Source: Mobula hypostoma
Taxonomy: Eukaryota
Reading direction: 5' to 3'
DNA: 64,000 bases
Assembly (NCBI RefSeq): GCF_963921235.1
Contig: NC_086097.1
Span: 122,948,001-123,012,000, forward strand
This document shows, piece after piece, positions 13,215 through 59,414 of this stretch. The notes below the pieces were generated by a model that was given only the letters and a program-made list of their open reading frames with translations, ran no database searches and was not told the DNA's origin. The position numbers were made by a program, and so were the translations under genes. Each line of letters begins with the position of its first letter. Position 1 is the first letter of the stretch.

Positions 13215-15900
13215 CGCTGGACGTGATTTAGAATTATAGAATCTATTATCAGTTCTTTACATCCTTTCATACCCTTACGGCATCCTTTCTGCTCTACTGT
13301 AAGTATATTGTGCTTACCTAAGTGACTGGTGATTAGTTGTGAGATGCATGAGGTTATAATTTTATACATAGATTGTTACAAGTAATAGGATGATATTTTG
13401 ATGAGTCATTTGTGATTTCTCCTTAAAGTAAGAGATATGTTTTACCTTCTGTCAAAAGCGTGGGCATTTTTTCAGAATTTTTAAGAAAATTGATATATGC
13501 ATTAATAGGTACAGATGAAGGTAAGTAATTTTTTTCCAATAATTATGAACATTATCACTAGCAGTTCTTTTCCACGTGAGTATTTTCCATAACTGCTTTT
13601 AGCATATCCATTATAACTTCAGGTGTTTTCATGTTTTCAATTGTGTCTGTGCATTCTTTTTCTTTCCTAATCCAGCTTGCTTCTTGATTGTGTATCGCCC
13701 TGTTTGACCAGGTATTAGACCAAAAGTTCATTATCTCTGTGTTTGTTGGTAATTTCATGCTAGGGTTGGAGGTGTTTTGATGCATTGAATTTAGTTTCAA
13801 TGTCCTATATATAAATCTTTTTCATTGATCCTGAACAGGTAATTATGGTTTTTTTCATCTGGTACATTTCTGGTACTTTTATCCACCAAGCTTTTGTTAT
13901 AGTGTATCTTTAAATTCTACAGTGCTTTTGTTAGGTTGATTATATCTTGTATGGACCTTATATTTCTTCAGCTTTTCTGTTCACTTTCTTGCTTGGGTTA
14001 TCCACTTTATACTCCATTAGACAAACAATTTTTGTTCTTAAAGTTTCAATTTTGTTTCTTAATCTCTTCTGCCATTTCAATGTTCTCATTTTATTACTCA
14101 GTTTTCAGTTTCCATTAATGAGTGCCTCTATTCCAGAGCCAGCCATTGCACTGCACTGCTGGTGATGCTGAGCGGTCTGTTACTGTGTGTAGTTCTTCAA
14201 ATGTGTCAGGTTTTCCTAAATATTGTTGTAGTATAATGTTGTTGACACATAAACTCTTCTCAGGCTTTCAGCCAAGCCCAGGCGTCATTTGAACTGATGT
14301 TTCAATGGCAAACTCTGCCAGCTTCATCAGTGATGATCTCTAATCTGGTGTCTAATCTGGTGGTATATAAACTCAACTGAATTGCGACCGCCAGTCTTCC
14401 CTATGGCTTTTGGGACTGCCTGGTGAAGGAAGCCATTGAAATAAGACTAGAGGATAAGAATTTCAACAAAGATAAAGGTCTCACTTTAAGTAAACTCTGG
14501 AATATGATTTTAAACAAGGTGGGACAGCGGAAACCTGATTGGTTGAGGACTAACCTATCAGGAAGAACAGACAACAGGTGTTGAGTATATTTACTACTGG
14601 ACTAGACATGCCTAAGCATCATTCCTGATGAAGATAGCAGAGATTGTGATTGAAAAGTCAGTTAAAATTGACATCTGGACCTTGATAGAATCCCAAGAAG
14701 CGTTTAGGTGTCATATACATCGGGAAAGCTCTAGATCACCTTTTCACAATTTTGTTGAGATTGTTAACAATATTTGCAAATTTTGATGACATGTCTTCTT
14801 TTGATATAGGGTCTTTTTGTTGAGTGTGTACTCAGTGTCAGAGGGCTGATCGGAGGCTCAGAGTTTTTGGACGACACAGAGTCGGACCGTAGTCGGGATG
14901 GCAGGGAGAGTTTTCTTCCTTCTCCTGTCTGTGTGATATGTGGGACTTTCAAGAGACATTGAACTCTTTTATTGTGCCATGGACTGTTCTTCATCAAGTT
15001 ATAGTATTGTTGCACTGTTGTAACTATATGTTATAATTATGTGATTTTGTAGTTTTTTCAGTCTTGGTCTGTCCTGTGCTTTGTGATATCACACCGGAGG
15101 AATATTGTATCATTTCTTAATGCATGCATTACTAAATGACAATAAAAGAGGACTGTGTGTCCTAATAATCTAATCTAATGTACTGTGTTAGTATCATGTT
15201 AAATATTAGGTTAATTTTGTCTGTAAGCTCAGCTTTGTCCTCAGCATTCTGCGGAGGCTCCGCACCTGTGTTGTTGCTATTAGCGTCAGGTTGTGGAGCA
15301 GTTGTTGAACTAATTCCGTTTTCATCCATGCTTCGGGCGGGTGGGGGAGGGTGGAATTTTCATTATTTCCTTACATAGCATTGATTTGGCTGGTTTCTTT
15401 GTAGCTCTTGTGCTACTTCTAGTTTTGTTTAGTTTAACCTGTCTATAGGGATTAAGTTTCTTTTATTATCACAATACGTTGATCTGCTATTTGTTGTGCA
15501 ATTACTTGCATGAAGGGATTTTATGCTATAAACTGTTGATAAAGTTTGTCCCTGTGTGCTGTCATGTCAGTCTCAGGTTCTGTTACTCAGTAACATACAC
15601 GCATTATGAATGTGTTTACTTCTAATGACTATTTCATGCGCGTCTTTCTTCTCTTAATTGCTTGAGTGGTCTCCATTGTAAGTGGATGCTCCCCTGAGAA
15701 ACAGCCTGTGGTGTTGGTGGGTTACTTTGAAAGCTGGCTGTATCTTTTTTTCGAGTTTCTTCAGCAGTGTACCACGAGCAGTTCGTTTACCGTCATGCCC
15801 AGCGCCAGCTTCAGGTGTGACCTGGCGATCCCCAGGCAGCAGCCGTGTCACTTTATTCCATAGACATCTCTCCAGTTATAAAGTGAAAGGTTGTAGCTTT
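13215..15900 (-). mobile_element. Decayed R4/Dong-like non-LTR retrotransposon (N-terminus to start of RT), with nested insertions
   Basis: YKIITSCISQLITSHLGKHNILTVEQKGCRKGMKGCKE.LIID (R4-type RT entry); FWSNTWS...HN.EA.WI; N-terminal RMK*SLEVNTFIMR...ETDMTAHR...QQIADQR near 15650-15475. Confidence 0.7.
14251..14740 (+). mobile_element. Second-clade (Poseidon-like) Penelope fragment with inverted pseudo-LTR
   Basis: 14400-14505 encodes FWDCLVKEAIEIRLEDKNFNKDKGLTLSKLWN (GIY-YIG C-terminus); 14251-14377 is a diverged reverse complement of 14581-14705; CTGATGA...GAAA in both arms. Confidence 0.75.
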
Positions 15901-18900: not shown

Positions 18901-19909
18901 ATGTCAACTATATTAAATAACTCAAAGGCAGTGGAGAAAATACAAATTAATTTATTCTTCAACACCTACATTGCAACGTATTAAATCTGCAGTGGCTCCT
19001 GGCTAGGGAACAATTGCCATAAAATATGACTATTTCAAGCAGGACAAGTAGTTTTTTTTTGGAACAGACTGAATTAGCTGGTTTGAATTTATGAACAAGT
19101 TCTTGAGGTGGGGGAGGAATGGTATAAAATTACCTGGAACTCTATTTTTATTGTAATGATATCAGTACTTCACCTGAAAGACTGTGGTAGTTAAGAAGAC
19201 AGCCTGCCTCCACCTTCATGAGAATACTTGTTATGTAGAGGCCATGTCTCTGGGTATATTTAAGGAGGAGGTTGATAGATTCTTAATTAGTAAGGGCATC
19301 AAAGGTTACAGAAGACAGAAAAATGTGGTTGAAAAGGAAAATAAATCAGCCATGATTGAATGGTGGACCAGACTTAATGGACCAATTGGCCTAATTCTGC
19401 TCCTATGTCTTATGATCTTATCACATGCCTATCAACAAATTGGGGTAGAGTTTGGTTTGTATAGAACCCGAACAGTAGGGACATCAAACCAAACCTCTAT
19501 CAAGGACAAAGGTAGGAACAGACAATGTGGAAAAGTATTTTAAGAGGGGGAGGGCCAATTATGATGATATTAGGCAGGTTCTTGTTTGCATAAATTGAAA
19601 ACCAATATTCTTAAGGAAATGTACAAACAGAAATGTGGAGGTTGTTTAGGGAGCACTTACATTGGGTTCTGGATAGGTTTGTCTCACTGAGACAGGGAAA
19701 AGATGGTAGGGTGAAAGAATCATGTTTGACAAAGGAGGTGGAACAATTAGTTGAGAGGAAGAAGAAGGTATACTTAAGGCTGAAGTATCACAATTGAGAG
19801 AGTCTTTGACAAATGCGAGAACACTGTAGAACAGGCTAATATGCTAGAGCAAGTTGAGGCTGAGAAAGGAGTATTGTTGGAGCTGCTGAAAAACATTAGG
19901 GTAGTTAAG

Positions 19910-20044
19910 CAACACACACAAAAATTGCTGGTGAACGCAGCAGGCCAGGCAGCATCTCTAGGAAGAGGTACAGTCGACGTTTCGGGCTGAGACCCTTCGT
20001 CAGTACTAATTGAAAGAAGAGATAGTAAGAGATTTGAAAGTGGG
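19910..20044 (-). mobile_element. Solo Penelope 3' terminal fragment with hammerhead motif
   Basis: Close copy of 34045-34180; flanked by AGGGTAGTTAAG (19898-19909) and AGGATAGTTAAG (20045-20056). Confidence 0.85.
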
Positions 20045-20065
20045 AGGATAGTTAAGTCCCCAGGG

Positions 20066-20121: not shown

Positions 20122-20750
20122 TTGAAAAGAGGAAAGATATTGTTGGAGTGTTGACAATGATCTTTGTGTCCTCCCTGGTCACAGGAATGGTACCAGAGGA
20201 TGCTTTTCCATTGTTCAAGAAAGATAATAGGGAAATCCTGGGAATTATATACCACTGAGTTTTATTTCAGTGGCAGGCAAACTATCAGACAGGATAGTTA
20301 GGGAGAGGAATTACGAGTATTTGAGAAACTTATCTTATTGGGGTGGTTAGCAAGGCTTTGTGAGGGGCAGATCATGCCTCACGAGCCTGACTGAATTTGT
20401 CAAGTAGATGACAAAACAAACTGATGAAGCTAGACCAGAGGCTGTGGTGTACATGCATTTTAGTAAGGTATTGGATAAAGTTTCCCTTGGTAAACTCAGG
20501 AGGCATGGAATCCGGGGAAATTTGGTTGTGTGGATTCGTAATTGGCTTACCCACGGAAAGCAGAGGGTAGTTGTAGAAGGAGTATATTCCGTCTGGAGGT
20601 GAGTGACCAGAGGTGTCCTGTAGAGATCTGCTCTGGAACCCTAACTCTTTGTGATACTTATAAATGACTTGGATGAGGAAGTGGAAGGGTGGGTTAGTAA
20701 GTTTGTAGATGACACAAAGCTACATGGTTTTGTGGATAGTATAGAAGGTT

Positions 20751-23700
20751 TGTTGCCTTCCGGGTGCCAGGGTCTGGGGTGTTTCTGACCAGGTGCATAA
20801 CATCCTGGGACAAGAGGGAAAGCAACCAGAAGTTGTGATACATGTTGGTACCAACAACATAGGCAGGAAGAGGGATCAGGTCCTGAAGTGTGAGTTTCGG
20901 GAACTAGGCAGAAGGCTGAAGAACAGGACCTCAAGAGTGGCGTTCTCAGGATTGCTGCCAGTGTTATGTGACAGTGATGGTAAGAATTGGAGGAGATGGC
21001 AATTGAATGCGTGGCTGAGGAGTTGGTGCAGGGAGCAGGGTTTTAGATTTTTGGATCATTGGGATCTCTTCTGGGGAAGGTGGGACCTGTACAGATTGGA
21101 TGGGTTGCACCTGAACTCGAGGGGGAGCAATATCTTTGCAGGTAGGTTTGCTAGCATGGTTCGGGAGGGTTTAAACTAATTTGCAAGGGGGATGGGACCC
21201 GGAGCGATAGAGCAGTGAAAGAAGTGCATGGAGTAAAGCCAGATCTAACATATAGAGAGACTTTGAGGAAAGAGAAGCAGAATAAACAGCATAAAGGTAG
21301 TAAGGTACAAGGGCTGAAGTGTGTGTACCTCAATGCAAGAAGCATCAGGAACAAAGGTGATGAACTCAGAGCTTGGATACATACATGGAATTATGATATA
21401 GTGGCCATTACATAGGCTTGGCTTGCACCAGGGCAGGAATGGATTCTCAATATTCCTGGATTTCAGTGCTTTAAAAGGGATAGAGAGGGGGGAAAAGGGG
21501 AGGAGGGGTGGCATTACTGGTCAGGGTTACTATTACAGCTACAGAAAGGGTGGGTAATGCATCAGGATCCTCTTTTGAATCAGTATGGGTGGAAGTCAGA
21601 AACAGGAAGGGAGCAGATACTCTATTGGGGATATTCTATAGACCCCCTGGTAGCAGCAGAGATACAGAGGAGCAGATTGGGAGGGAGATTTTGGAAAGGT
21701 GCAAAAATAACAGGGTTGTTATCATGGGTGACTTTAATTTCCCTAATATTGATTGGCACCTGATTAGTTCCAAGGGTTTAGATGGGGTTTGTTAAGCGTA
21801 TCCAGGATGGATTCCTGTCACAGTATGCGGACAGGCCGACTAGGGGGAATGCCATACTAGATCTAGTACTAGGTAATGAACCGGGTCAGGTCACAGATCT
21901 CTCAGTGGGTGAGCATCTGGGGGACAGTGACCACCGCTCCCTGGCCTTTAGCATTATCATGGAAAAGGATAGAATCAGAGAGGACAGGAAAATTGTTAAT
22001 TGGGGAAGGGCAAATTATGAGGCTATAAGGCTAGAACTTGCGGGTGTGAATTGGGATGATGTTTTTGCAAGGAAATATACTATGGAAATATGGTCGATGT
22101 TTAGAGATCTCTTGCAGGATGTTAGGGATAAATTTGTCCCGGTGAGGAAGATAAAGAATGGTAGGAGGTGGAAAATCTAGTCAGGTGGAAGAAGGCAGCA
22201 TACATGAGGTTTAGGAAGCAAGGATCAGATGGGTCTATTGAGGTATATAGGGAAGCAAGAAAGGAGCGTAAGAAGGTGCTGAGAAGAGCAAGAAGTGGGC
22301 ATGAGAAGGCCTTGGCAAATAGGGTAAAGGAAAACCCCAAGGCATTCTTCAATTATATGAAGAACAAAAGGATGACAGGAATAAAGGTAGGACCGATTAG
22401 AGATAAAGGTGGGAAGATGTGCCTGGGGGCTGTGGAAGTGAGTGAGGTCCTCAATAATTACTTCTCTTCGGTACTCACCAATGAGAGGGAACTTGATGAT
22501 GGTGAGGACAATATGAGTGAGGTTGATGTTCTGGAGCATGTTAATATTAAGGGAGAGGAGGTGTTGGAGTTGTTAAAATACATTAGGACGGATAAGTCCC
22601 TGGGGCCTGACGCAATATTCCCCAGGCTACTCCACAAGGCGAGGGAAGGAATTGCTGAGCCCCTGGCTCGGACCTTTATGTCCTCGTTGTCCACGGGAAT
22701 GGTACCGGAGGATTGGAGGGAGGCGAATGTGGTCCTTTAGTTCAAAAAAGGTAGTAGGGATAGTCCGGGTAATTACAGACCAGTGAGCCTTACGTGTGTG
22801 GTGGGAAAGCTGTTGGAAAAGATTCTTAGAGATAGGATCTATGGGCATTTAGAGAATCATGGTCTGATCAGGGACAGTCAGAATGGCTTTGTGAAGGGCA
22901 GATCGTGTCTAGTAAGCCTGATAGAGCTCTTTGAGGAGGTGACCAGGCATATAGATGAGGGTAGTGCAGTGGATGTGATCTACATGGATTTTAGTAAGGC
23001 ATTTGATAAGGTTCCACACGGTAGGCTTATTCAGAAAGTCAAAAAGCATGGGATCCAGGGAAGTTTGGGCAGGTGGATTCAGAATTGGCTTGCCTACAGA
23101 AGGCAGAGGGTCGTGGGGGTGAGAATACATTCAGATTGGAGGATCGTGACTAGTGGTGTCCCACAAGAATCTGTTCTGGGACCTCTACTTGTCGTGATTT
23201 TTAATTAACAACCTGGATGTGGGGGTAGAAGGGTGGGTTGGCAAGTTTGCAGACGACACAAAGGTTGGTGGTGTTGTAGACAGTGTAGAGGATTGTCGAA
23301 GATTGCAGAGAGACATTGATAGGATGCAGAAGTGGGCTGAGAAGTGGCAGATGGAGTTCAACCCAGAGAAGTGTGAGGTGGTACACTTTGGGAGGACAAA
23401 CTCCAAGGCAGAGTACAAAGTAAATGGCAGGATACTTGGTAGTGTGGAGGAGCAGAGGGATCTCGGGGTACATGTCCACAGATCCATGAAAGTTGCCTCA
23501 CAGGTAGACAGGGTAGTTAAGAAAGCTTATAGGGTGTTAGCTTTCATAAATCGAGGGATAGAGTTTAAGAGTCGCGATGTAATGATGCAGCTCTATAAAA
23601 CTCTGGTTAGGCCACACTTGGAGTATTGTGTCCAGTTCTGGTCACCTCACTATAGGAAGGATGTGGAAGCATTGAAAGGGTACAGAGGAGATTTACCAGA

Positions 23701-24147
23701 ATGCTGCCTGGTTTAGAGAGTATGCATTATGATCAGAGATTAAGGGGGCTGAGGCTTTACTCTTTGGAGAGAAGGAGGATGAGAGGAGACATGATAGAGG
23801 TGTACAAGATAATAAGAGGAATAGATAGAGTGGATAGCCAGCGCCTCTTCCCCAGGGCACCACTACTCAATACAAGTGGACATGGCTTTAAGGTAAGGGG
23901 TGGGAAGTTCAAGGGGAATATTAGAGGAAGTTTTTTTACTCAGAGAGTGGTTGGTGCGTGGAATGCACTGCCTGAGTCAGTGGTGGAGGCAAATACACTC
24001 GTGAAGTTTAAGAGACAACTAGACAGGTATATGGAGGAATTTAAGGTGGGGGGTTATATGGAAGGCAGGGTTTGAGGGTTGGCACAACATTGTGGGCTGA
24101 AGGGCCTGTACTGTGCTGTACTATTCTATGTTCTGTGTTCTATTTTT
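20751..24147 (+). mobile_element. Younger CR1 LINE, 5'-truncated within ORF1 (SGNH esterase), ORF2 APE-RT with frameshifts/stops
   Basis: ORF1 CLPGARV...VIHVGTNNIG...DGLHLN; ORF2 YLNARSI, YRPP, MGDFN, SDH, DFSKAFD, KFADDT; (TTCTATG)n-like tail; AAGGTT at 20745-20750 and 24148-24153. Confidence 0.92.
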
Positions 24148-25437: not shown

Positions 25438-25989
25438 CACTAGTGACCATTTTATTAGGTACATCAGTACACCTGCTTGTTAATGCAAATATCTAATCAG
25501 CCAGTCATATGGTAGCAACTCATTGCATAAAAGCATACAGACATGGTCAAGACATTTAGTTGTTGTTCAGACCAAATATCAGAACAGGGAAGAAATGTGA
25601 TCTAAGTGACCTTGACCGACCGTGGAATGATTGTTGGTGCCAGAGTATCTCAGGAAACTGCTGATCTCCTGGGATTTTCAGGCACAACAGTCTCTAGAGT
25701 TTACAGAGAATAGTGTGAAAAACAAAAAAAAACACCCAGTGAGAGGCAGTTCTGTGAGCAAAAAATGCCTTGTTAATGAGAGATGACAGAGGAGAATATT
25801 CAGACTGGTTCAAGCTGACAGTAATTCAAATAACCATGCATTACAACGGTGGTGCGCAGAAGAGCATCTCAGAACACACAACAGGTTGAACCTGCATATG
25901 GATGGGCTACATCAGCGGAGACCACAAACATACACTCAGTAGACATTTTATTAGATATAGAGGGTACCTAATAAAGTGGCCATTGAGTG
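25438..25989 (+). mobile_element. Non-autonomous Tc1 deletion derivative
   Basis: Same TIR and N-terminal transposase as 3852 and 6329 copies; ends in a TIR-TIR hairpin at 25933-25989. Confidence 0.8.
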
Positions 25990-27100
25990 CGTTCAACACC
26001 ATCTGCCCTGCCCCACTGGGGGAGAAGCTGACAGCGATGCAGGTGGATGCTTTCCTGGTATCATGGATTCTTGATTACCCGACTGGCAGACCACAGTACA
26101 TGTGCTTGCAACACTGTGTGTCCGACAGAGTGATCAGCAGCACTGGGGCTCCACAGGGAACTGTCTTGTCTCCCTTTCTCTTCACCATTTACACCTCGGA
26201 CTTCAACTACTGCACAGAGTCTTGTCATCTTCAGAAGTTTTCTGATGACTCTGCCATAGTTGGATGCATCAGCAAAGGAGGTGAGGCTGAGTACAGGGCT
26301 ACGGTAGGAAACTTTGTCACATGGTGTGAGCAGAATTATCTGCAGCTTAATGTGAAAAACACTAAGGAGCTGGTGGTAGACCCGAGGAGAGCTAAGGTAC
26401 CGGTGACCCCTGTTTCCATCCAGAGTGTCAGTGTGGACATGGTGGAGGATTACAAATACCTAGGGATACGAATTGACAAACTGGACTGGTCAACGAACAC
26501 TGAGGCTGTCTACAAGAAGGGTCAGAGCCGTCTCTATTTCCTGAGGAGACTGAGGTCCTTTAACATCTACCGGACGATGCTGAGGATGTTCTACGAGTCT
26601 GTGGTGGCCAGTGCTATCATGTTTGTTGTTATGTGCTGGGGCAGCAGACTGAGGGTTGCAGACACCAGCAGAATCAACAGACTCATTTGTAAGGCCAGTG
26701 ATGTTGTGGGGATGGAACTGGACTCTCTGACGGTGGTGTCTGAAAAGAGGATGCTGTCCAAGTTGCATGCCATCTTGGACAATGTCTCCCATCCACTACA
26801 TAATGTACTGGTTGGGCACAGGAGTACATTCAGCCAGAGACTCATTCCACCGAGATGCAACACTGAGCGTCATAGGAAGTCATTCCTGCCTGTGGCCATC
26901 AAACTTTACAACTCCTCCCTTGGAGGGTCAGACACCCTGAGCCAATAGGCTGGTCCTGGACTTATTTCCTGGCATAATTTACATATTATTATTTAACAAT
27001 TTATGATTTTATTACTATTTAATTATTTATAGTGCAACTGTAACAAAAACCAATTTCTCCCGGGATCAATAAAGTATGACTATGACTATGACTATGACTA
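25988..27100 (+). mobile_element. Young 5'-truncated Rex1/Babar LINE
   Basis: Open frame SAFNT...GAPQGTVLSP...KFSDDS...RLYFLRRL...SFLPVAIKLYN to stop at 26948; AATAAA plus (ACTATG)n tail. Confidence 0.9.
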
Positions 27101-27149: not shown

Positions 27150-27389
27150 TAAGAGAAAGCAGGGAGGAGTTTGAGCGGGAGGGGAGGAAGGAAAAAGTGG
27201 GCTGTGGTTACCTGAAGTTAAGAGAAATCAATGTTCATGCTGTCAGGTTATAGTCTACAGGGGAAATATGTGGTATTGATCGTCTAATCTGTATCTGCTT
27301 TCGTTGTGGCAGTGGAGGGGCTGTGGGCAGACATGTCAGTGTGGGGATGGGAAATGGAATTGAAATGGTTGGCCAACAGGAGATTGCTT
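27150..27389 (-). mobile_element. Old Penelope GIY-YIG C-terminal fragment
   Basis: Diverged match to 34430-34615. Confidence 0.65.
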
Positions 27390-27900
27390 TGTTACATCAA
27401 TAGGTTTTCAAAAGCAGCTCAGAAGGACAGAAAGACACAAATTCACAAATTATCTACTTAGAACAACAAAAGTATGTTTATTAGGGCAGAACAGACCAAG
27501 CATTAAAATACTTATCTAGCTATGCACGGGCCCCTCTCACTGCAGCACACCTCCCACCTGATCCACAGCACTGTTCACGACCAGCCCATTAGTGAGGCCT
27601 CGACGAACTGTCCCAGGCCCCCTGAACACTTTATTTTATACCTTCTTCACTGATATGAAATGCCGCAGTAAGTGGGCCAATGCATAGCACCATCTGAAAC
27701 CACTGAATCAGAACCAGTTATCACTCTTCACAAGTGCCATCCCATCCCTGAGCTCACCTGACTCTCATGTTCCCGTGGCCGTTCCCACAGTAGTATTACA
27801 TTCCAGTGGTTGCATTCCCACTGTAGTAATCAAAGTCTGTCACATTCAAGGCCATAGTGGTGGTAAGACATTCAACAAGCACAAAGATCAACCCTTTACA
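27390..27900 (-). mobile_element. Probable 3' LTR of an endogenous retrovirus
   Basis: Minus strand TGTAAAG...GTAACA termini, preceded by purine-rich GAGGAGTGGATGG; TATAAAA near 27640 and AATAAA near 27482; lies directly downstream of env. Boundaries inferred from a single copy. Confidence 0.5.
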
Positions 27901-30495: not shown

Positions 30496-32517
30496 ATGAT
30501 TTTGGGCAGTAGCCTGGTGGTTAACACAATCGCTTTACAGTATCAGCAGCCACTAATCAGAGTTCGATTCCCACCACTGCCTGCAAGGAGTATGCACATT
30601 CTCTTCGTCAATTGTGTTAAATTATTGCCGCAAACATTGAAGGGACAAGCGATGGAGAGGCGATTTCGGGGGATGAGCCGAGATGCTGTGTTGCAGAATC
30701 GTAGCAGATGGAGTTCCGATGCCTATACAACAGCCACGGGTGTGAGGTTGGATCGCTCTGGGTGCTGAGCCCATTTGAAGAGCTTGAGAGAGGCTTCAGG
30801 CTGGGCAGCAAAATCTGAGCCTGGAGTTAGTCACTGGGTGGCATAATCTAGGCCTAGAGCCTTTTGCTGCAGTGGTGCCCTGGCCCTAGTGCAAGGTACA
30901 ATATGCTGTTCAGACAATTTAAACGCCAGTCCAGGTCGGAGCCAATTTTCGCTTGTTTTCCGTGATACTCTCTTCTCTCTATGGTGCTGGAGCCTTTCAC
31001 TGTTCCGTTGTTTGGTCAATTTAAATGCTGGCCCAGAAAGACTGAAAAGACAGGGTGTCAGGATCTGGGGCGAGAGCTGATTTCGCTCATTCTCCACCAT
31101 GGTCACTCCTCTCTCTCTATGGCACTGAGGCTATGAAGACTGCCCAGGCTGTTGTGCTCTATGCCCGCTAGTAACTGATAAACCAGGCTTTGGGCCTACT
31201 CCGGGCTGCCCCGGGGTTTGGCTCTGAGGACTCAATTTTGGTTTGGATTGTTGTTCGCTTCAATTGTTTGCACGATTTTGTTCTTTTTGTTCTATCTGAA
31301 TACATTGCGTAATTAATTGATCTGTATGGACAGTATGCAAGACAAGCTGTTCACTGTATCTCAGTACATGTGACAATAATAAACCATAGAGGCCACACCA
31401 AGAGCACGGAATACAATAAATGAAACTTATGGATTTGCATCTGAATTGATACCTCATATGGAAGGACTGTTTAGGTTCCTGAATGTTGGTAAGGAAGGAG
31501 ATACAGCATATAGAACATAGAACATAAAACATTACAGCACCGTACAGGCCCTTCAGCCCACAATGTTGTGCTGAACTTATAAGCTACTCAAAGATCAATC
31601 TAATTTTTCCCTACGACATAACCCTCCATTTTTCTATCATCCATGTGCCTATCTAAGGGTTTCTTAAATTCCCCTGATGTATCTGTCTCTACCACCACAA
31701 TGGACAGGTATTCCACCAATCTTGTGCACCTCTACCAAGTCACCTCTCATCCTCCTTTGTTCCAAAACAGAAAACCTCTAGCTCGCTCAACAAGTCCTCA
31801 TAAGACATTCTGTAATCCAGATAGCATTCTGGTAAATCTCCTCTGTACTCAATCCAAAGAGTCCACATACTTCTGACAATGAGGCAATCAGGCGGAACAC
31901 AATATTGCAAGTCTAACCAGCGTTTCATAGCGCTGTAAGACGCAGGCATAACACTTAGCCCGGTGGCAAGGCTAAGTGCCTGGAGAGCGATCGATGTGGA
32001 GAGGCAAGCAGACAAAGTAATCATGGAGAGAGTGCTCTCATCCCAAAATAACAAATACTAATTTTCCTCCATTGATGCTGTCTGTCCCATTGAGTTCCTG
32101 CAGCGTTTTGTGCACATTGATCCAGATATCGAGCATCTGCAGTGTCTCTTGTGTGCCGCATTGAATAAAGTTATTTTGTGCTGTTGATCTGTTCTTGTAT
32201 TCCTTGGTTGGTCCTCCACTTCCCCTCCATATGTTTTCCCCACAGGCAAGCAGATCACGCGACAGTGAAACTGCTGAGCCTACAATACAGTACACAACTC
32301 CCACAACCATTCCCAAACAGTGATCGCAAAAATCTGACATTGCCACACATCATAACAATAACACACCCGCCTTAAAGCATTTAAATCAGTTTCAGAAATT
32401 ACCTATTTCTGGAAAATGGGCAGAGGTAAAGGTACAGGGCACACTTTTCTTTTCAGTCAGGGATATTCAATTTGTGTGCATTTATCAAGCAAACCTGATC
32501 ATAAAGATCAGATAAGA

Positions 32518-33243
32518 TCAGACAGACCAAGGAACTGATTGTTGACTTCAGGAAGGGGAAATCAGGGGAGTACACACCAGTCCTCACTGAGGGATCAGAG
32601 GTGGATAGGGTGAGCAGTTTCAAGTTCCTGGGTGTCAACCTCTCTGAAGATCTATCCTGAGCCCAACATTTTGATCCAATTATGAAACAGACACACCAGT
32701 GCCTATACTTCATTAGGAGTTTGAGGAGATTTGGCTTGTCACCAAAGACTCCAGCAAGTTTCTACATATGTACCATGAAGAGCATTCTGACTGGTTGCAT
32801 TGGCATCTGGTATAAAGGGGGCACTGTACAGATTCGAAAAAAGCTGCAAAAGCTAGTAAACCCAGTCATCTCCATCGTGGGCACAGCCTCCCCACCATCC
32901 AGGACATTTTCAAAAGGTGATGCCTCAAAAAGGTAGCATCCACCATTAAGGATCACTGCCACCCAGAACATGGCCGCTTCTCATTACTACCATCACAGGG
33001 GAGGTGCAGCAGCACGAAGACACACTCCCAATGATTTTGAAACAGCTTCTTCCCCTCTGCCATCAGATTTCTGAAGAGTCCATGAACCCTGAACACGACC
33101 TCACTATTGTGCTCCCTGTTTGTATTATTTATTTTTTATATTTCTTATCATAACTTATAGATTTTATGTGTTATACTGTACTGCTGCAGCAAAACAACAA
33201 ATTTCACAATATACGTCACTGATCATAAACCGGATTCTGATTC
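32518..33243 (+). mobile_element. Rex1/Babar LINE 3' fragment
   Basis: TKELIVDFR...FKFLGV...LYFIRSLRRFGLS; GATTCT tail. Confidence 0.75.
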
Positions 33244-33712
33244 ATAAGTTATGCCAGTGATAAGGAATAAAGTATTAGAGAATCTCAAGGTGGAAAAATC
33301 CCGGAGTCTGCAACCACGGCTTTTAAAGGAAGAGGCTGTGGTGACAGTGGGCTCATTTGTCAAAAAAATTCAAAACTCACTAAATTCTGGGAGGGTACCA
33401 ATAGATTGGAAAACAGCCAAGGAAGACAGAAGGCAGTGAACTCCCTGCCAATTAGTTTAAAATCTATCTTGGCAAGATGCTGTCAATAATCAAAGAGGAA
33501 ATACCTAATCTATTAGGAAACGCACAGATAATCAAACTTGCTCAGCATGACCTTATGAAAGGTAAATCACACTTAACAAATTGGCTTGAACTCTTCAAAG
33601 ATGTGTCAGGGAGGGTTGATAGAGGGGAACCTGGAGATGTGGGGTATTTAGAATTCTAAAAGGCATTTGATGAGCAGCCATATACGAGGTTGGTCCATAA
33701 AATTTGGAGGAA

Positions 33713-33939
33713 CACACACCAAATGCTGTAGGATCTCAGCAGGCCAGGCAGCATCTATGAAGAAGTATAGTCGATATTTCAGGACAAGACCCTTCATCAG
33801 GATATCCTGATGAAGAATCTCGGTCCGAAACATCGACTGTTCTCTTTTCCATAGGTGTTCCCTGGTCTGCTGAGTTCTTCCACCATTGTGTAGGCTTTGC
33901 TTGGATTTCCAGCATCTGCAGATTTTCTCTTGTTTAAGT
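33713..33939. mobile_element. Palindromic mini-Penelope with two back-to-back hammerhead motifs
   Basis: Centre CTTCATCAGGATATCCTGATGAAG (33792-33815); arms are opposite-orientation PLE 3' ends; TTTGGAGGAA at 33703-33712 and 33940-33949. Confidence 0.85.
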
Positions 33940-34106
33940 TTTGGAGGAAGTGTGTTAGCAGAACTTGAAAATTGGCAGCTGCATAGAAAACAGAGTTGTG
34001 ATAAATGGAAACAACAGGAATTCTGCAGATGCTGGAAATTCAAGCAACATACATCAAAGTTGCTGGTGAACGCAGCAGGCCAGGCAGCATCTATAGGAAG
34101 AGGCGC

Positions 34107-34142
34107 AGTCGACGTTTCAGGCCGAGACCCTTCGTCAGGACT
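34107..34142 (-). ncRNA. Minimal type I hammerhead ribozyme (left arm)
   Basis: Reverse complement of 37573-37608. Confidence 0.8.
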
Positions 34143-34430
34143 AACTGAAGGAAGAGTGAGTAAGGGATTTGAAAGCTGGAGGGGGAGGGGGAGATGCAAA
34201 ATGATAGGAGAAGACAGGAGGGGGAGGGATGGAGCCGAGAGCTGGACAGGTGATAGGCAGAAGGGGATACGAGAGGATCATGGGACAGGAGGTCCAGGAA
34301 GAAAGACGGGGGGGGGGGTGACCCAGAGGATGGGCAAGAGGTATATTCAGAGGGACAGAGGGAGAAAAAGGAGAGTGAGAGAAAGAATGTGTGCATGAGT
34401 AACAGATGGGGTACGAGGGGGAGGTGGGGC

Positions 34431-35603
34431 CTAGCGGAAGTTAGAGAAGTCAATGTTCATGCCATCAGGTTGGAGGCTACCCAGACGGAATATAAGGTGT
34501 TGTTCCTCCAACCTGAGTGTGGCTTCATCTTTACAGTAGAGGAGGCCGTGGATAGACATGTCAGAATGGGAATGGGATGTGGAATTAAAATGTGTGGCCA
34601 CTGGGAGATCCTGCTTTCTCTGGCGGACAGAGCGTAGATGTTCAGCAAAGCGGTCTCCCAGTCTGCGTCGGGTCTCACCAATATATAAAAGGCCACATCG
34701 GGAGCACCGGACGCAGTATATCACCCCAGTCGACTCACAGGTGAAGTGATGCCTCACCTGGAAGGACTGTTTGGGGCCCTGAATGGTGGTAAGGGAGGAA
34801 GTGTAAGGGCATGTGTAGCACTTGTTCCGCTTACACGGATAAGTGCCAGGAGGGAGATCAGTGGGGAGGGATGGGGGGGACGAATGGACAAGGGAGTTGT
34901 GTAGGGAGCGATCCCTGCGGAATGCAGAGAGAGGCGGGGAGGGAAAGATATGCTTAGTGGTGGGATCCCGTTGGAGGTGGCGGAAGTTACGGAGAATAAT
35001 ATGTTGGACCCGGAGGCTGGTGGGGTGGTAGGTGAGGACCAGGGGAACCCTATTCCTAGTGGGGTGGTGGGAGGATGGAGTGAGAGCAGATGTACGTGAA
35101 ATGGGGGAGATGCGTTTAAGAGCAGAGTTGATAGTGGAGGAAGGGAAGCCCCTTTCTTTAAAAAATGAAGACATCTCCCTCGTCCTAGAATGAAAAGCCT
35201 CATCCTGAGAGCAGATGCGGCGGAGACGGAGGAATTGCGAGAAGGGGATGGCGTTTTTGCAAGAGACAGGGTGAGAAGAGGAATAGTCCAGATAGTTGTG
35301 AGAGTCAGTAGGCTTATAGTAGACATCAGTGGATAAGCTGTCTCCAGAGACAGAGACAGAAAGATCTAGAAAGGGGAGGGAGGTGTCAGAAATGGACCAG
35401 GTAAACTTGAGGGCAGGGTGAAAGTTGGAGGCAAAGTTAATAAAGTTAACGAGTTCTGCATGCGTGCAGGAAGCAGCGCCAATGCAGTCGTCGATGTAGC
35501 GAAGGAAAAGTGGGGGACAGATACCAGAATAGGCACGGAACATAGATTGTTCCACAAACCCAACAAAAAGGCAGGCATAGCTAGGACCCATACGGGTGCC
35601 CAT
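34431..35603 (-). CDS. PLE RT C-terminal half plus GIY-YIG endonuclease (inverted, 5'-truncated copy)
   Basis: 390-aa translation identical to the C-terminus of the + copy. Confidence 0.85.
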   Translation of the reverse strand: MGTRMGPSYACLFVGFVEQSMFRAYSGICPPLFLRYIDDCIGAASCTHAELVNFINFASNFHPALKFTWSISDTSLPFLDLSVSVSGDSLSTDVYYKPTDSHNYLDYSSSHPVSCKNAIPFSQFLRLRRICSQDEAFHSRTREMSSFFKERGFPSSTINSALKRISPISRTSALTPSSHHPTRNRVPLVLTYHPTSLRVQHIILRNFRHLQRDPTTKHIFPSPPLSAFRRDRSLHNSLVHSSPPSLPTDLPPGTYPCKRNKCYTCPYTSSLTTIQGPKQSFQVRHHFTCESTGVIYCVRCSRCGLLYIGETRRRLGDRFAEHLRSVRQRKQDLPVATHFNSTSHSHSDMSIHGLLYCKDEATLRLEEQHLIFRLGSLQPDGMNIDFSNFR

Positions 35604-35632
35604 AGCTACACCTTTAGTTTGGAGGAAATGGG

Positions 35633-37277
35633 CTTTATCCGCTCAGGGGATCTCCCATCCACTGCTACCAACCTTATAGTTCCCACATCCCGCACTTCCC
35701 GTTTCTACCTCCTACCCAAGATCCACAAACCTGCCTGTCCTGGCCGACCTATTGTCTCAGCTTGCTCCTGCCCCACCGAACTCGTTTCTGCATACCTCGA
35801 CACTGTTTTATCACCCCTTGTTCAATCCCTTCCGACCTATGTTCGTGACACTTCTCACGCTCTTAAACTTTTCGATGATTTTAAGTTCCCTGGCCCCCAC
35901 CGCTTTATTTTCACCTTGGATGTCCAGTCCCTATATACTTCCATCCCCCATCAGGAAGGTCTCAAAGCTCTACGCTTCTTTTTGGATTCCAGACCTAATC
36001 AGTTCCCCTCTACCACCACTCTGCTCCGTCTAGCAGAATTAGTCCTTACTCTTAATAATTTCTCCTTTTGCTCCTCCCATTTCCTCCAAACTAAAGGTGT
36101 AGCTATGGGCACCCGTATGGGTCCTAGCTATGCCTGCCTTTTTGTTGGGTTTGTGGAACAATCTATGTTCCGTGCCTATTCTGGTATCTGTCCCCCACTT
36201 TTCCTTCGCTACATCGACGACTGCATTGGCGCTGCTTCCTGCACGCATGCAGAACTCGTTAACTTTATTAACTTTGCCTCCAACTTTCACCCTGCCCTCA
36301 AGTTTACCTGGTCCATTTCTGACACCTCCCTCCCCTTTCTAGATCTTTCTGTCTCTGTCTCTGGAGACAGCTTATCCACTGATGTCTACTATAAGCCTAC
36401 TGACTCTCACAACTATCTGGACTATTCCTCTTCTCACCCTGTCTCTTGCAAAAACGCCATCCCCTTCTCGCAATTCCTCCGTCTCCGCCGCATCTGCTCT
36501 CAGGATGAGGCTTTTCATTCTAGGACGAGGGAGATGTCTTCATTTTTTAAAGAAAGGGGCTTCCCTTCCTCCACTATCAACTCTGCTCTTAAACGCATCT
36601 CCCCCATTTCACGTACATCTGCTCTCACTCCATCCTCCCACCACCCCACTAGGAATAGGGTTCCCCTGGTCCTCACCTACCACCCCACCAGCCTCCGGGT
36701 CCAACATATTATTCTCCGTAACTTCCGCCACCTCCAACGGGATCCCACCACTAAGCATATCTTTCCCTCCCCGCCTCTCTCTGCATTCCGCAGGGATCGC
36801 TCCCTACACAACTCCCTTGTCCATTCGTCCCCCCCATCCCTCCCCACTGATCTCCCTCCTGGCACTTATCCGTGTAAGCGGAACAAGTGCTACACATGCC
36901 CTTACACTTCCTCCCTTACCACCATTCAGGGCCCCAAACAGTCCTTCCAGGTGAGGCATCACTTCACCTGTGAGTCGACTGGGGTGATATACTGCGTCCG
37001 GTGCTCCCGATGTGGCCTTTTATATATTGGTGAGACCCGACGCAGACTGGGAGACCGCTTTGCTGAACATCTACGCTCTGTCCGCCAGAGAAAGCAGGAT
37101 CTCCCAGTGGCCACACATTTTAATTCCACATCCCATTCCCATTCTGACATGTCTATCCACGGCCTCCTCTACTGTAAAGATGAAGCCACACTCAGGTTGG
37201 AGGAACAACACCTTATATTCCGTCTGGGTAGCCTCCAACCTGATGGCATGAACATTGACTTCTCTAACTTCCGCTAG
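35633..37277 (+). CDS. PLE reverse transcriptase plus GIY-YIG endonuclease (5'-truncated, uninterrupted frame)
   Basis: LPKIHK, GRPIVS, LDVQSLYTSIP, GVAMGT, RYIDD, FLD, Cys linker PCKRNKCYTC, VIYCVRC..C...YIGET.R.L..RF.EH. Confidence 0.93.
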
Positions 37278-37572
37278 GCCCCACCTCCCCCTCGTACCCC
37301 ATCTGTTACTCTTTTTAATGCACACATTCTTTCTCTCACTCTCCTTTTTCTCCCTCTGTCCCTCTGAATATACCTCTTGCCCATCCTCTGGGTCACCCGC
37401 CCCCCCCGTCTTTCTTCCCGGACCTCCTGTCCCATGATCCTCTCGTATCCCCTTCTGCCTATCACCTGTCCAGCTCTCGGCTCCATCCCTTCCCCTCCTG
37501 TCTTCTCCTATCATTTTGCATCTCCCCCTCCCCCTCCAGCTTTCAAATCCCTTACTCACTCTTCCTTCAGTT

Positions 37573-37608
37573 AGTCCTGACGAAGGGTCTCGGCCTGAAA
37601 CGTCGACT
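37573..37608 (+). ncRNA. Minimal type I hammerhead ribozyme (right arm)
   Basis: AGTC-CTGACGA-AGG(GTCTCGG)CCT-GAAA-CGTC-GACT: helix I AGTC/GACT, conserved core, helix II, palindromic ACGT in place of helix III; predicted cleavage after C37604. Confidence 0.82.
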
Positions 37609-37859
37609 GCGCCTCTTCCTATAGATGCTGCCTGGCCTGCTGCGTTCACCAGCAACTTTGATGTATGTTGTGATAAATGGGCCCTTTTTAGGCTGGAGAG
37701 ATGTAACTAACCATGTGTCCCTGGGATCAGTTCTAGGTCTTCAATTGTTTACTGACTTCCTTAATGACATGGAAGAGGGAAGGAATTGGAAGACTTCCAA
37801 GGTTGTTGAGAGAAAAAAAATGGTGAAAGGGTATGTTACAATGAGAACATTGTGATTCA

Positions 37860-38976
37860 CCAGGATATACTTTGACAAGCCTCCGTAGATGCACAGTGGA
37901 GAGTATCCTAATTGGTTGCATCACAACCTGGTATAGAAGCACCAAGGTCCTGGAATGGAAAAGTTTACAGAAAATGATGGATTCAGCCTAGTCCATCACA
38001 AACAAAAACTTTCCTACCTTACTTATTTTCTGCCCATTATGCCACTGGCGTTTAGGGCAGCAATAAAGGTCCACCTCCACCTCTGACGGCATTCAGGGCT
38101 TCCTTCATCATGTCAGTAGCTTCCTCTCAGTCATGCAAGTCCCAGCTGGAGACACAAGAATACTGTCACACTCAGATACAGAAGGATTCTTCATTGTTGT
38201 TTCAGTAACAATTTTGTTTTCCTAATCAGAGGTAGTAGCCCTGAGTGGAACACCTGAACCTGGAGGACCAGTGGACCACTCTTAGTCTGGCCTCTACCCT
38301 GTGACCTGTTTGATATGGGTCACTCTACCAAAAGCCAAAGCATAAAGCCCTGACTCCAGCCAACATAGGTCTCCGGGTCATTGCAGCACACAGGTCTCCC
38401 AACCCTACGACAAGGTTGTGGTCCCGTTGAAGGGCCCTTCCAATCATGGAGTGCATTTACATGGAATGCTGTCACAAGAAAGCAGCATCCACCATCAAAG
38501 ATCCCCACCGTCCAGGTCATGCTCTCTTTTCACTACTAACATAAAGCAGGAGGTTCAGGAGCCTCGAGTCCCACACTCTTCAGGAACAGTTATTACCTCC
38601 TCAATCACCATGGATAACTTCATTCACCAAGACTCTGAACTGAATCTATGACATACAAATTCACTTTCAAAAACTCTTTTGCAGTTCATGTACTCAGTAC
38701 TATTCAGTTTATCGTCCTTTGCACAATAGTTGTTCGTTGGCCTTCGTCTGTTTATGTACTGTATTTCATAAAATTCTATTTGAACACAGAAAAGTAAAGC
38801 GAGTACCAGTTATGCTGACCTTTCAATCTACTCTTAAGATCAATCTAACCTTTCCCTGCTACATAACCTTCTATTTTTCTATTGTTTTTTTCCTGAAATG
38901 CCTGAAAGATAGTGAATCTCAAGGTAGTATATGGTAATAAAAATGTATTCTGATATTAAATTTTCATTGAACTTTG
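37860..38976 (+). mobile_element. Rex1/Babar 3' fragment with nested inserts
   Basis: RCTVESILIGCIT.WY motif; GAACTTT tail. Confidence 0.7.
38017..38437 (-). mobile_element. Non-autonomous RTE/RTEX-type element
   Basis: Interrupts the Rex1 copy; minus-strand end GCCCTAAACGCCAGTGGCATAATGGGCAG...AAGTAAG and 5' part resemble RTE termini (from recall). Confidence 0.5.
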
Positions 38977-45127: not shown

Positions 45128-47029
45128 GTAGTTTATTCCTGCACCTATTTACTTGTGTTCATTTTAAGTTAATCAGAAATTAGGTGAAGCAGAAGTTATT
45201 GGTGCACATTTATGGAATTAAAATGTAACAATTTTCAATGGCACACTGGGAAATAACATAACAAATTGCAAAATAATATTCTGATAGGTTCCAGCATTTG
45301 CAGTCTCCCTTGCATCTCCCTTGCATTTTAGTCCAGGCTTAGCGATCGGATTTAAATGAGACACACATAAATTTAAAGCCCATGGTAATAGAAGATAGAT
45401 GGGGAGTACAACACAGTACAGGCGCTCCAACCGATAATATTGTGCTGACCTTTTAACCTACTCTAAGATCAATCTAACCCACGTAGCCCTCCATTCTTCT
45501 ATTGTCCATGTGCCTATCTACACACCTCTCTAATGTCCCCAGTGAATCTGCCCCCAGCTGCGTGTTCCACACACCTACCACTCTCTATGTAAAAAAAAAC
45601 TATCTCTGACAACCCCCCGTACTTTCCTTCCAATACCTTAAGTTAGGCCCCTTTTTATTAGCCATTTCCACCTTAGGAGAAAGGTCTCAGGCTGTCCATT
45701 CACCCTATGCCTCTTACCATCTTGTACACCTCTATCAAGTCACTTCTTACCCTCCTTTTCTCCACAGAGAAAAGCCCCAGCTCTCTCAACCTATCCTCAA
45801 CTTCTTGTATCCTGCCACATAGAGCACAGCTATTAGGTACAATCGTCAACTATTAGGTAGAACACCAGATGAGTAACCTGGAGCGTTAATCCAGATACTG
45901 ATTGGATACTGATCCAAAGATATATATTCAAGTCCTAAATTTAAATACAATTAATTAGATGGTCCAAAATCTTTAAAAAAAAAGATTGCAGCAGTAATGG
46001 AAGCTATGTATCTACTAGACAGTTGTAACAGACCCATCTGCTTCGCAATTGTACTGCTCACTAATCTGCCAACCTGGTTTAGTCTAGATAACTACAGAGC
46101 CAGAACAGTGTAGTTGTATTGTAAAAGCTCTGGCAAACCTCTTGTATACAAGATGACAGAGGCATAGATTGAGTTGACAGCCTGAGACTTTTTCCCAGGA
46201 CAGAAGTGAATAATATGAGGGGGCTGAATTTTCAGGTGATTGGACGAAAGTATAAGGGGAATGCCAGATGTATGATTTTGACAGAGAGAGTGGTGAGTAC
46301 GTGGAACACCCTGCCAGGGGTGATGGTAGAAACAGATATATTAGGGACATTTAAGAAACTCATATAGAAATGCACATGGATATCGAAAAATGGAGGACTA
46401 TGGAGGAGAAAAGGTTTATATTAATTTTAAGAGTGGGTTAAAAGGTGAGCACAGCTTCATAGTTTGCAGGGTTTGAACTATGTTTTATATTCTATAAACC
46501 AGCCAGTTCATTGGCAAAGTAAGGACTTTCGATGTTGCTGTAAATTGAAAAAGTAATTCTACTATCAGAAGCAAACGCAAGTTTGGATTTGGTGAAATTT
46601 ATTGAATTGGACATTAAAACTGCAGTAACCACAACTCTACCACCTTCATATTCTTATCTAAACTTCAGAAGTTGGGGTGAGGTGGTGGGTCTGGTATGTT
46701 GACAGAGATCCTCCTCTTCCCTGTGCGGTGTGGTAGCATAATGCTTTACAGCTATCTCTACGCTCAGGCTTCAATTCCCACCACTCTCTGTAAGGAACAA
46801 AGGTTTCCTCTGGGTGCTCTGATTTCCTCCCACATTCCAAAAGACATCTGGGTTAGGGTTGGTGAAACGTGGGGTGGCTATGTTGGCGTTGGAAGCGTGG
46901 CGACACTTGTGAAGGCTTGCCCCAACACATCCACGGGCGGTGTTGGTCGCTGACACAAACAATGCGTATTTCAATACTTCCATGACCATGTGACAAATAA
47001 AGTTAATCCAGTCATTCCTTGTCACCTTC

Positions 47030-47655
47030 GCTGAACACCTTTGCTCTGTCTGTCACAAAAGATAGTCATACATTTTAATTCTAATCCCCATTCCTGGATC
47101 GACATGTGGCCCATGATCTCCTCTATTGCCATGATGAGGCCACTCTCAGGTTGCAGGAGCAACACCTCCAATTCTACCTAGATAGCCTCCAATCTAATGG
47201 CATGAATATCGATTTGTATAACTTCCAGTAGATTCCCACCACCACCCCCCAGCCTTCTTCCTTTCTCCATTCCCCATTCTGGCTCCCCTCTTACCCCTTC
47301 TCTTCTGTCCTGCCCACCACCTCCCTCTGGTACCCCTCCTCCTCACCTTTCTCCCATGGTCCACTCTCCTCTCCTATCAGACTTCTTTATCTTCAGCGCT
47401 ACACCTCTTCCACCTATCACCTCCCAGCTTCTTAGTTCATTTCTCCTCCCCCATCTCCCCATCTACCCACCTCACTCCTCACCTAGTCCCACCCATCACC
47501 TTCCAGTTTGTAATCCTTCCCCTCCTCCCACCTTATTCTGGCTTCTTTCATCCTTCTTTCCCGTCCTGATGAAGGGCTGCAGCCCAAAACGTTGACTCCC
47601 CATAGATGCTGCCTGTGCTGCTGAGTTCCTCCAATATTTGCTGTGTGTTACTCCA
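47030..47655 (+). mobile_element. Old Penelope 3' end with mutated hammerhead
   Basis: YCHDEATLRLQEQHL...; GTCCTGATGAAGGGCTGCAGCCCAAAACGTTGAC at 47563-47596. Confidence 0.8.
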
Positions 47656-59010: not shown

Positions 59011-59414
59011 TAAAGAGCCGACAGAGGTTCAGAAGATAGAATAAGCAGCCAGTATCTTTATCTCAGGGTCAAAATGTCAAATACTAGAAGGTATGCATGT
59101 ACTTAAGGTGAGAGAGTGTAAGTTCAAAGGTGATATTCAGGACAGGTACAGTGTTTTACCCAGTGAGTGGAGGGTGCCTGCAATGCACTGCCTGGGAGGG
59201 TAGTGGAGGTAATTATGATAGAGGTGTTTAATAGGCTCTTGGGCAGGCACATAAGTGTGAAGAGAAGAGAGGGATATGGATATTGTGCAGGCAGAGTGAT
59301 TATTTTAGTTAGGCATTTAATTATAAGTTTAATTAGTTCAACACAACATCGTGGGCTGAAGCACCTGCTCCTGTAATGTGCTGTTCTATATTCTATGTTG
59401 GCTTCAGGACAGGC

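What the first reader, a model, noticed from the sequence alone, without database searches (positions are those of the whole stretch)
33995..37680. Very young fold-back Penelope element: 1.6-kb inverted arms, intact RT-GIY-YIG frame, TSD and one-sided tail
Seen: arms 34045-35632 and 36076-37670 mirror each other around a 443-bp spacer. Both carry stop-free coding sequence, a 14-bp TSD flanks the unit, and only the left arm has the 36-nt tail (34009-34044). Established: PLEs form inverted pseudo-LTRs with a short tail extension. Inference: this is a single recent insertion from an active Neptune-like family, and read-through transcription would give a ~1.6-kb dsRNA hairpin (possible siRNA source or ADAR substrate).
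Basis: partly seen in the sequence, partly recalled or inferred. Interest (0 to 1): 0.8.

Follow-up and report, generated by a model that had tools for sequence, protein, structure and literature searches.

The report
Young two-armed Penelope retrotransposon insertion
This 3.7-kb mirror-image block is a recent, shortened insertion of a very common jumping gene (Penelope-like) in what is likely a ray genome, in a back-to-back layout already described for this class; its lopsided arms and central joint suggest that both cut DNA strands likely copied the element's RNA separately rather than one copy folding back on itself.

Summary
The structure is real: arms 34045-35632 and 36076-37670 (4 differences), a 443-nt single-copy centre, a 14-bp target duplication and a 36-nt tail on the left arm only. 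A related species very likely has the empty site. The frame is stop-free but not intact: real coding starts at 35633, about 350-400 residues short of full-length relatives, so this copy is probably dead on arrival. The protein is Neptune-type by linker motif and by-eye similarity. The layout (inverted truncated copy, one-sided tail, TSD) is in print, and this scan noted it many times on other DNA (57 notes, at least 13 genomes). 'Fold-back' is the wrong mechanism: neither arm is contained in the other. One detail I did not see in the papers or notes I read: the left arm stops where its last 7 letters repeat the target at the top-strand cut (2 of 1999 possible stops do so; noticed after the fact). 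Likely mechanism: both target strands primed reverse transcription, and the top strand returned to a target copy by microhomology. Nothing shows that the locus is transcribed, so the dsRNA hairpin is untested. Mostly ordinary.

The parts
33995..34008 (+). left copy of the target-site duplication (14 bp)
   Evidence: single target copy in organism B inferred
34009..34044 (-). 36-nt tail, left arm only; ends at the same letter as the tail of the older neighbour
   Evidence: family contigs stop fitting at 34009 and go on only a few shared letters
34045..35632 (-). left (shorter) arm: 3' end of the element, 400 codons of RT C-half, thumb, linker and GIY-YIG plus the 3' non-coding part
34106..34143 (-). 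hammerhead-like motif, left arm
   Evidence: motif scan; no Rfam hammerhead match; activity untested
35626..35633 (+). central joint; the last 7 letters of the left arm (AAATGGG) equal the target at the top-strand cut plus one letter; they also supply a chance in-frame ATG at 35628
35633..36075 (+). single-copy centre: N-terminal half of the RT core, reached only by the longer arm
35633..37670 (+). right (longer) arm: 5'-truncated element; stop-free frame 35634-37277 (547 aa: RT with YIDD, Cx4Cx2C linker, GIY-YIG), tail-less end
37572..37609 (+). hammerhead-like motif, right arm: CUGACGA core, helix I 5 pairs and helix II 5 pairs (both counts include G-U), GAAA, palindromic ACGU helix III, GUC site
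   Evidence: not the minimum-energy fold as a monomer
37667..37680 (+). right copy of the target-site duplication; its first 4 letters also fit the element end
33699..33949 (.). separate, older mini two-armed insertion of a related family: same layout, one-sided tail, decayed TSD (12 of 14 alike); shared with organism B
   Evidence: contigs of run X5 cover 33184-33923

Best explanation
This is a young, 5'-truncated insertion of a Neptune-type Penelope-like retrotransposon, likely made in one event in which both strands of a staggered cut primed reverse transcription on the element's RNA, at the family's two start sites about 36 nt apart. Shown: two non-nested head-to-head copies, a tail on one arm only, one TSD around both, no homology between the arms' own ends at the joint, and a 7-letter match between the left arm's inner end and the target end. 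Inferred order: (1) the GIY-YIG endonuclease nicks both strands 14-15 nt apart; (2) the bottom-strand end, helped by 4 matching letters, primes at the tail-less site and copies 2.04 kb, and this cDNA joins or copies the top-strand end without homology; (3) the top-strand end primes at the tail site, copies 1.62 kb, and stops where its new end repeats the target end, re-anneals there and is carried on as second strand of the right arm. Whether the two passes read two RNAs, a tandem RNA or one RNA twice is open; both came from the same small young subfamily. The copy lacks the N-terminal third of the protein and is likely unable to move itself.
For: Non-nested arms: the left has 36 nt that the right lacks, the right has 443 nt that the left lacks. 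The 3' end of the right-arm cDNA has no match upstream of 36076 that could prime a fold-back. Outer ends are family-wide: the older neighbour's tail ends on the same letter; contigs of other copies stop fitting at 34009 and 34043. Family sequence upstream of 35633 (loose end in run X7; fits protein P0025) does not match the left arm's end, so the arms share no microhomology. The left arm's end matches the target over 7 letters at cut +1; 2 of 1999 possible stops reach 7 at cut +/-1, and 15 of 1999 anywhere within +/-30. In vitro, the anole PLE protein cuts and extends both strands, starts at two sites that bound the tail, and is predicted to be a dimer (PMC11167929). Empty site: in organism B a 331-nt contig lies on 37667-37914 with 248 letters (runs X5, X7), and the left flank 33936-33969 is covered in X7 at the identical depth 49.2; 83 + 248 = 331 fits one target copy. 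Arms differ by 0.13% substitutions (95% range 0.015-0.45%) against 1.8% (15 of 815) between the two species' flanks. Both arms share minority letters, e.g. 36261 and its mirror 35447, where about 99% of summed contig depth in X1 reads otherwise.
Against: One locus. The 7-letter match was noticed after the fact; allowing four arm/strand choices it is a 0.4-3% event, and a later second insertion at the 5' joint would leave the same letters. All 4 arm differences sit in the outer 358 nt (0.0025 if spread evenly). This is not explained by the model itself; the sites are mutable ones (a CpG, a C run, a T run, a C-rich tract), and conversion between the arms is possible. The in vitro work is on a Poseidon-clade protein, not Neptune, and did not reconstitute inverted products in the parts I read. 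The flank-to-flank join in organism B was not printed, and X5 and X7 are one sample. The central and left joints were not among the listed contig pieces; the right-junction contig in X1/X2 has only 21-25 letters on the element side, under the tool's 31-letter rule for bridging, and that sample may be the assembly's own.
Confidence: 0.68

Rival explanations
1. Two successive insertions: an ordinary 5'-truncated copy with a 15-bp TSD, then a later copy of the same subfamily inserted in reverse into its 5' joint with a 6-bp duplication (AAATGG on both sides of the left arm).
For: AAATGG does flank the left arm at 34003-34008 and 35626-35631; the arms differ at 4 places.
Against: It needs a second hit within one letter of the first cut, from the same minority subfamily. 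It also needs the duplicated letters to be element-templated by chance. The pairing of one tailed with one tail-less end recurs in the neighbour and is the typical published layout.
Confidence: 0.12
2. Self-priming fold-back: a transcript or cDNA turns back on itself and copies its own sequence, as proposed for inverted Penelope structures in rotifers.
For: Head-to-head orientation; the inner 1236 nt are identical; both arms share rare letters. The model is in print (PMC3846280).
Against: That model rests on palindromes at the junction; here there is a 443-nt single-copy centre, no priming complementarity, and a tail on the supposed copy that the supposed template lacks.
Confidence: 0.1
3. Twin priming of L1 type on one tandem transcript: the second primer lands at the tail site of an upstream, truncated unit of the same RNA.
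For: PLEs form partial tandems; identical coding parts with different non-coding ends could be two units of one source locus. Twin priming itself is recalled, not read here.
Against: No tandem source locus was seen (no genome is held), and it does not by itself explain the target match at the joint.
Confidence: 0.07
4. Assembly artefact (fold-back chimeric read).
For: No listed contig piece spans the central or the left joint.
Against: A TSD on both sides, a one-sided tail ending on the family's letter, 4 arm differences, a probable empty site with one target copy in a related species, and the right junction present without differences in short-read contigs.
Confidence: 0.03

Closest known systems
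Complex insertions of endonuclease-bearing Penelope-like elements (Craig et al. 2021, PMC8557442, passages and supplement parts seen; Arkhipova et al. 2013, PMC3846280, passages seen: Pen2a_Av with inverted pLTR, 31-bp tail, 9-bp TSD)
   Same: 5'-truncated copy with an adjacent inverted truncated copy head to head, a 30-40-bp tail at one end only, one TSD around the unit, hammerhead-like motif in the terminal repeat.
   Different: The inverted arm is 1.6 kb and holds 400 codons, against about 180-210 bp in the rotifer examples I read; there is no palindrome at the joint; the joint repeats the target end.
Neptune clade, nearest printed row Neptune1_Ap (PMC8557442 supplement)
   Same: C-terminal GIY-YIG with Cx2-5CxxC linker; 56 of 95 residues identical around the RT catalytic motifs by my by-eye count, against about 22 for the PoseidonFr row.
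   Different: Ray family; this copy lacks the N-terminal part. No tree was built, and the paper finds Neptune paraphyletic.
PAc (Poseidon of Anolis carolinensis), Frangieh et al. 2024, PMC11167929 (parts 1-2 of 4 read)
   Same: Two RT start sites bounding the tail; both target strands cut and extended; hammerhead upstream of the start sites.
   Different: Different clade; the paper reports priming without homology, whereas here the tail-less end shares 4 letters with the target (the tailed end shares none); the parts read do not derive inverted arms from the two-strand activity.
Minimal hammerheads of metazoan PLEs (Cervera and De la Pena 2014, PMC4209133, parts 1-2 of 4 read)
   Same: Type-I core, extra nucleotide before helix II, short palindromic helix III suited to a dimer.
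   Different: The first pair of helix II is G-U here rather than the conserved G-C; the two motifs lie on opposite strands, so one transcript would hold only one sense copy.

Membership tests
EN+ Penelope-like element | single frame with RT followed by a GIY-YIG endonuclease | tested here: met
   Pfam RVT_1 (E 1e-5) at 39-202 and GIY-YIG (E 4e-4) at 451-525, both just under the curated cut-offs; 1150 relatives at E<=1e-10 among 7995 scored; YIDD at 193
EN+ Penelope-like element | CCHH motif in the endonuclease | tested here: met
   CxxC between VIY and YIG, His 479 and His 495 (by eye against Fig. S2 rows)
EN+ Penelope-like element | N-terminal motifs including DKG (full-length ORF) | tested here: not met
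   absent from this copy because of 5' truncation; present in family protein P0025 and in 66 of 92 relatives. Lowers 'intact', not family membership
EN+ Penelope-like element | inverted truncated copy, one-sided 30-40-bp tail, TSD | tested here: met
   definition
EN+ Penelope-like element | hammerhead motif in the terminal repeat | tested here: inconclusive
   core and helices present by motif scan; no Rfam hammerhead match among 5 matches at E<=1; not the minimum-energy fold; cleavage untested
Neptune clade | Cx2-5CxxC linker between RT and a C-terminal EN (shared with Nematis) | tested here: met
   Cx4Cx2C at residue 414; a motif of this form in 110 of 110 relatives reaching residue 500
Neptune clade | placement in an RT phylogeny with named references | not testable with these tools
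   no named reference proteins were held as session sequences; by-eye comparison with printed rows favours Neptune1_Ap over Poseidon and Nematis rows
Penelope/Poseidon clade | no cysteine linker before the EN | tested here: not met
   linker present
Naiad/Chlamys | EN N-terminal to RT | tested here: not met
   EN is C-terminal
Fold-back (self-primed) product | one arm wholly contained in the other, with a palindrome or priming homology at the turn | tested here: not met

The most novel reading that the evidence does not exclude
Two-armed Penelope insertions are built by an excursion of the top-strand primer: instead of copying the first cDNA at once, the second cut end primes on element RNA at the tail site, copies it, and returns to the same target register by microhomology. 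The class's unexplained inverted repeats would then be a by-product of second-strand synthesis by a two-strand-priming dimer, readable in genomes as a match between the inner arm end and the target end. The same step would routinely plant long perfect hairpins able to feed silencing of the family.
Probability: 0.3. Interest if true: 0.5.

Novelty: new member of a known kind. Interest (0 to 1): 0.25.

Why it matters
As a structure it is ordinary for its class. Its value is as a clean, young, long-armed example with a probable empty site in a related species. The non-nested arms argue against the printed self-priming explanation of inverted PLE repeats and fit the in vitro two-strand, two-start-site activity. 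The target match at the central joint gives a cheap genome-wide test of how the two cDNAs are joined, a step that the in vitro paper leaves open.

Tried and rejected
No whole genome is held, so copy number, tandem source loci and a genome-wide test of joints could not be run. Rfam gave no hammerhead match; its 5 matches were weak miRNA-precursor hits to hairpins. Free folding did not give the hammerhead fold in any of 5 stretches, z between +0.9 and -1.5. No solved structure matched at E<=0.01. No listed run is on record as RNA; run X9, guessed to be RNA, holds family contigs but none on the left flank, which is no evidence either way on expression. Whether the left arm's 6-nt-shorter allele occurs in other copies could not be read: contigs were clipped there and not gapped. 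Only 40 of 281 difference rows and 15 of 6148 joint rows were shown, so the empty-site join and the central joint may be among rows I did not see. Three other inverted pairs in the window (4215-6579, 14243-14713, 58336-59536) were too decayed to read joints or secure TSDs. The older neighbour shows only a 4-letter match between arm end and target end (by eye): too weak to count. Pfam on 14 long ORFs outside the element: 4 matched an RT family and 1 an esterase family next to RT frames, which I read as LINE relics; 9 matched nothing; short host exons would be missed. Paper searches: Penelope + twin priming + inverted + retrotransposon gave 2 papers, neither on PLE mechanism by their listing; Penelope-like + head-to-head + both strands + target-primed + dimer + inverted (5 of 6) gave only PMC11167929; searches for PLEs in sharks and rays and for Penelope hairpin siRNAs were seen as listings only and gave nothing on this family. 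Subscription papers, among them Arkhipova 2006 and Evgen'ev and Arkhipova 2005, were not read and may already hold a two-primer model. The supplements of PMC11167929 and of the bioRxiv preprint were not seen. Rejected: 'intact ORF'; reading the 635-aa ORF as a gene; a MITE or DNA-transposon reading of the inverted arms (they are coding retroelement 3' ends).
Full report
The observation. They align with 1586 matches, 2 mismatches and 2 indels. All four differences lie in the outer 358 non-coding letters; the inner 1236 are identical. A 14-letter direct repeat brackets the unit at 33995-34008 and 37667-37680 and occurs nowhere else in the window. Its first four letters also fit the element's end, so the duplication is 10-14 bp. 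The 36-nt extension 34009-34044 is on the left arm only.

The frame is open but not whole. The 635-aa stop-to-stop ORF begins with 88 codons of antisense left arm. Real coding starts at 35633 and gives 547 residues with weak Pfam matches to RT and GIY-YIG. The closest named relatives are ray proteins, 92-95% identical in Mobula hypostoma, which is why I read the window as a ray genome (inference). The longest relatives have 889-958 residues. Of 92 that align from this protein's first ten residues, 30 go on for 300 or more residues upstream and 66 hold the DKG motif that this copy lacks. The 443-nt 'spacer' is the RT segment that only the longer arm reached. The copy also differs from the commonest letter of the family at several codons that change a residue (only 40 of 281 difference rows were shown). 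The joint happens to supply an in-frame ATG at 35628 from the antisense arm, giving a 549-codon frame. I take this as chance.

Clade. The endonuclease is C-terminal, has the CCHH residues, and follows a Cx4Cx2C linker. By the definitions in PMC8557442 (passages; supplement figures) this means Neptune or Nematis. By eye, 56 of 95 residues around the catalytic motifs equal the printed Neptune1_Ap row, against about 22 for PoseidonFr. No tree was built. Each arm carries a hammerhead-like motif with a short palindromic helix III, the minimal type described for PLEs in PMC4209133 (parts 1-2 of 4). Rfam did not match it and it is not the minimum-energy fold, so it stands as a motif only.

Reality and age. 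No genome is held, so I used public run contigs; 20 of 24 listed runs hold part of the stretch. In organism A (X1, X2, one sample, perhaps the assembly's own) a contig covers 37646-37914 without differences at flank depth, though with only 21-25 letters on the element side. In organism B (X5, X7, one sample) a 331-nt contig fits 37667-37914 with 248 of its letters, starting exactly at the first letter of the duplication. In X7 the left flank is covered at the identical depth, 49.2. 83 letters of left flank plus 248 give 331, which fits an empty site with one target copy; the join itself was not printed. Flanks differ between the species by 15 of 815 letters (1.8%), the arms by 2 substitutions in 1588 (0.13%, 95% range 0.015-0.45%). 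The insertion is therefore likely much younger than the species split. The family is very abundant in both species. Several letters of this copy are far commoner in A than in B (at 37317, 15% against 0.05% of summed contig depth keep a letter other than the majority one), pointing to a subfamily that expanded in A. Summed depth is not a copy number, so these ratios are rough.

How it was made. Neither arm is contained in the other, so neither can be a DNA copy of the other. The end of the longer arm's cDNA has nothing to pair with upstream of 36076. That argues against fold-back and against the self-priming model of PMC3846280 (passages), which rests on junction palindromes. Both outer ends are family start points: the older neighbour's tail stops on the same letter, and contigs of other copies stop fitting at 34009 and 34043. 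Each outer end is joined to a different strand of the staggered target. PMC11167929 (parts 1-2 of 4) shows that a purified PLE protein cuts and extends both strands, starts at two sites that bound the tail, and is predicted to dimerise. Two priming events in one insertion follow from that, as inference. Both arms share minority letters (36261/35447, about 1% of depth in X1; 36412/35296, 3-5%), so both passes read the same small subfamily. Whether they read two RNAs is open: I could not tell if the left arm's 6-nt-shorter allele exists elsewhere. The clustering of all four differences in the outer part (0.0025 if uniform) is unexplained; mutable sites or conversion between the arms could account for it.

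The central joint. The family sequence upstream of 35633 (loose end in X7, fitting protein P0025) shares nothing with the left arm's end. But the left arm's last seven letters, which are element-templated, equal the target at the top-strand cut plus one letter. Only 2 of 1999 possible stop points reach seven letters at the cut +/-1, and 15 of 1999 within 30 letters either side. I noticed this after the fact, so allow several-fold for choices. It suggests that the longer arm first joined or copied the top-strand end, and that the top strand then primed at the tail site, copied 1.62 kb and re-annealed at this match. A later second insertion at the same joint would leave the same letters and is the main rival. 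The match also suggests the joint was formed at this locus and not carried in from a parent. The three other inverted pairs in the window were too decayed to test it.

The hairpin. A transcript through the locus would form a 1.6-kb near-perfect duplex; that follows from the sequence. Nothing here shows such a transcript: the window's long ORFs gave only retroelement-type matches or none, and the one run laid that may be RNA says nothing about this locus.

Against what is known. An inverted 5'-truncated copy next to the main copy, with a 30-40-bp tail at one end, is described as typical for PLEs (PMC8557442; PMC3846280). This scan has noted the layout 57 times in at least 13 genomes, and earlier agents also proposed two-strand priming. 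I recorded my reading before seeing those notes, and they are not independent support. Two searches found no paper that ties two-strand priming to the inverted arms, but older subscription papers were not read. The bioRxiv preprint 10.64898/2026.07.22.740005 (passages) lists Neptune among the widespread vertebrate PLE groups. Verdict: a real, young, truncated member of a known kind with unusually long arms; interest 0.25, resting mainly on the testable joint signature.

Noticed in passing
window 33699-33949: Older mini two-armed PLE insertion with one-sided tail and decayed 14-bp TSD; the young element landed 46 bp from it, tail facing tail, adding a second imperfect hairpin (33805-34140, 71%). 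Insertion near an older tail may or may not be chance.
   Followed up: partly
window 35625-35631: The inversion joint creates an in-frame ATG with a purine at -3 and G at +4, giving a 549-codon RT-EN frame without the N-terminal part.
   Followed up: partly
window 34224-34397 versus 37313-37491: All four arm differences fall in the outer non-coding 358 nt; the inner 1236 nt are identical.
   Followed up: partly
window 14243-14713: Decayed head-to-head pair with hammerhead-like cores (14330 minus, 14625 plus) from a different family, with a possible 13-bp TSD near 14233/14746.
   Followed up: partly
window 34137-34146 joined to 37561-37582 in contigs: Many family contigs join the two arms just upstream of the hammerhead core, as very short head-to-head copies elsewhere in both genomes would.
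   Followed up: no
window 4989-5143, 19907-20047, 27214-27390, 31389-31499, 47026-47246, 58337-58963, 59450-59535: Further fragments of the same or related PLE families, 70-88% alike to the element.
   Followed up: no
window 20745-24072 and 25890-26945: LINE relics: an esterase-like frame followed by RT frames, and a 352-aa RT frame that also matches Pfam ALKBH8_N.
   Followed up: no
P0001, P0004: Public ray proteins named as a kinase-domain protein and a chitinase-domain protein match this retroelement protein over 68-83% of its length; probably gene models that absorbed PLE sequence.
   Followed up: no
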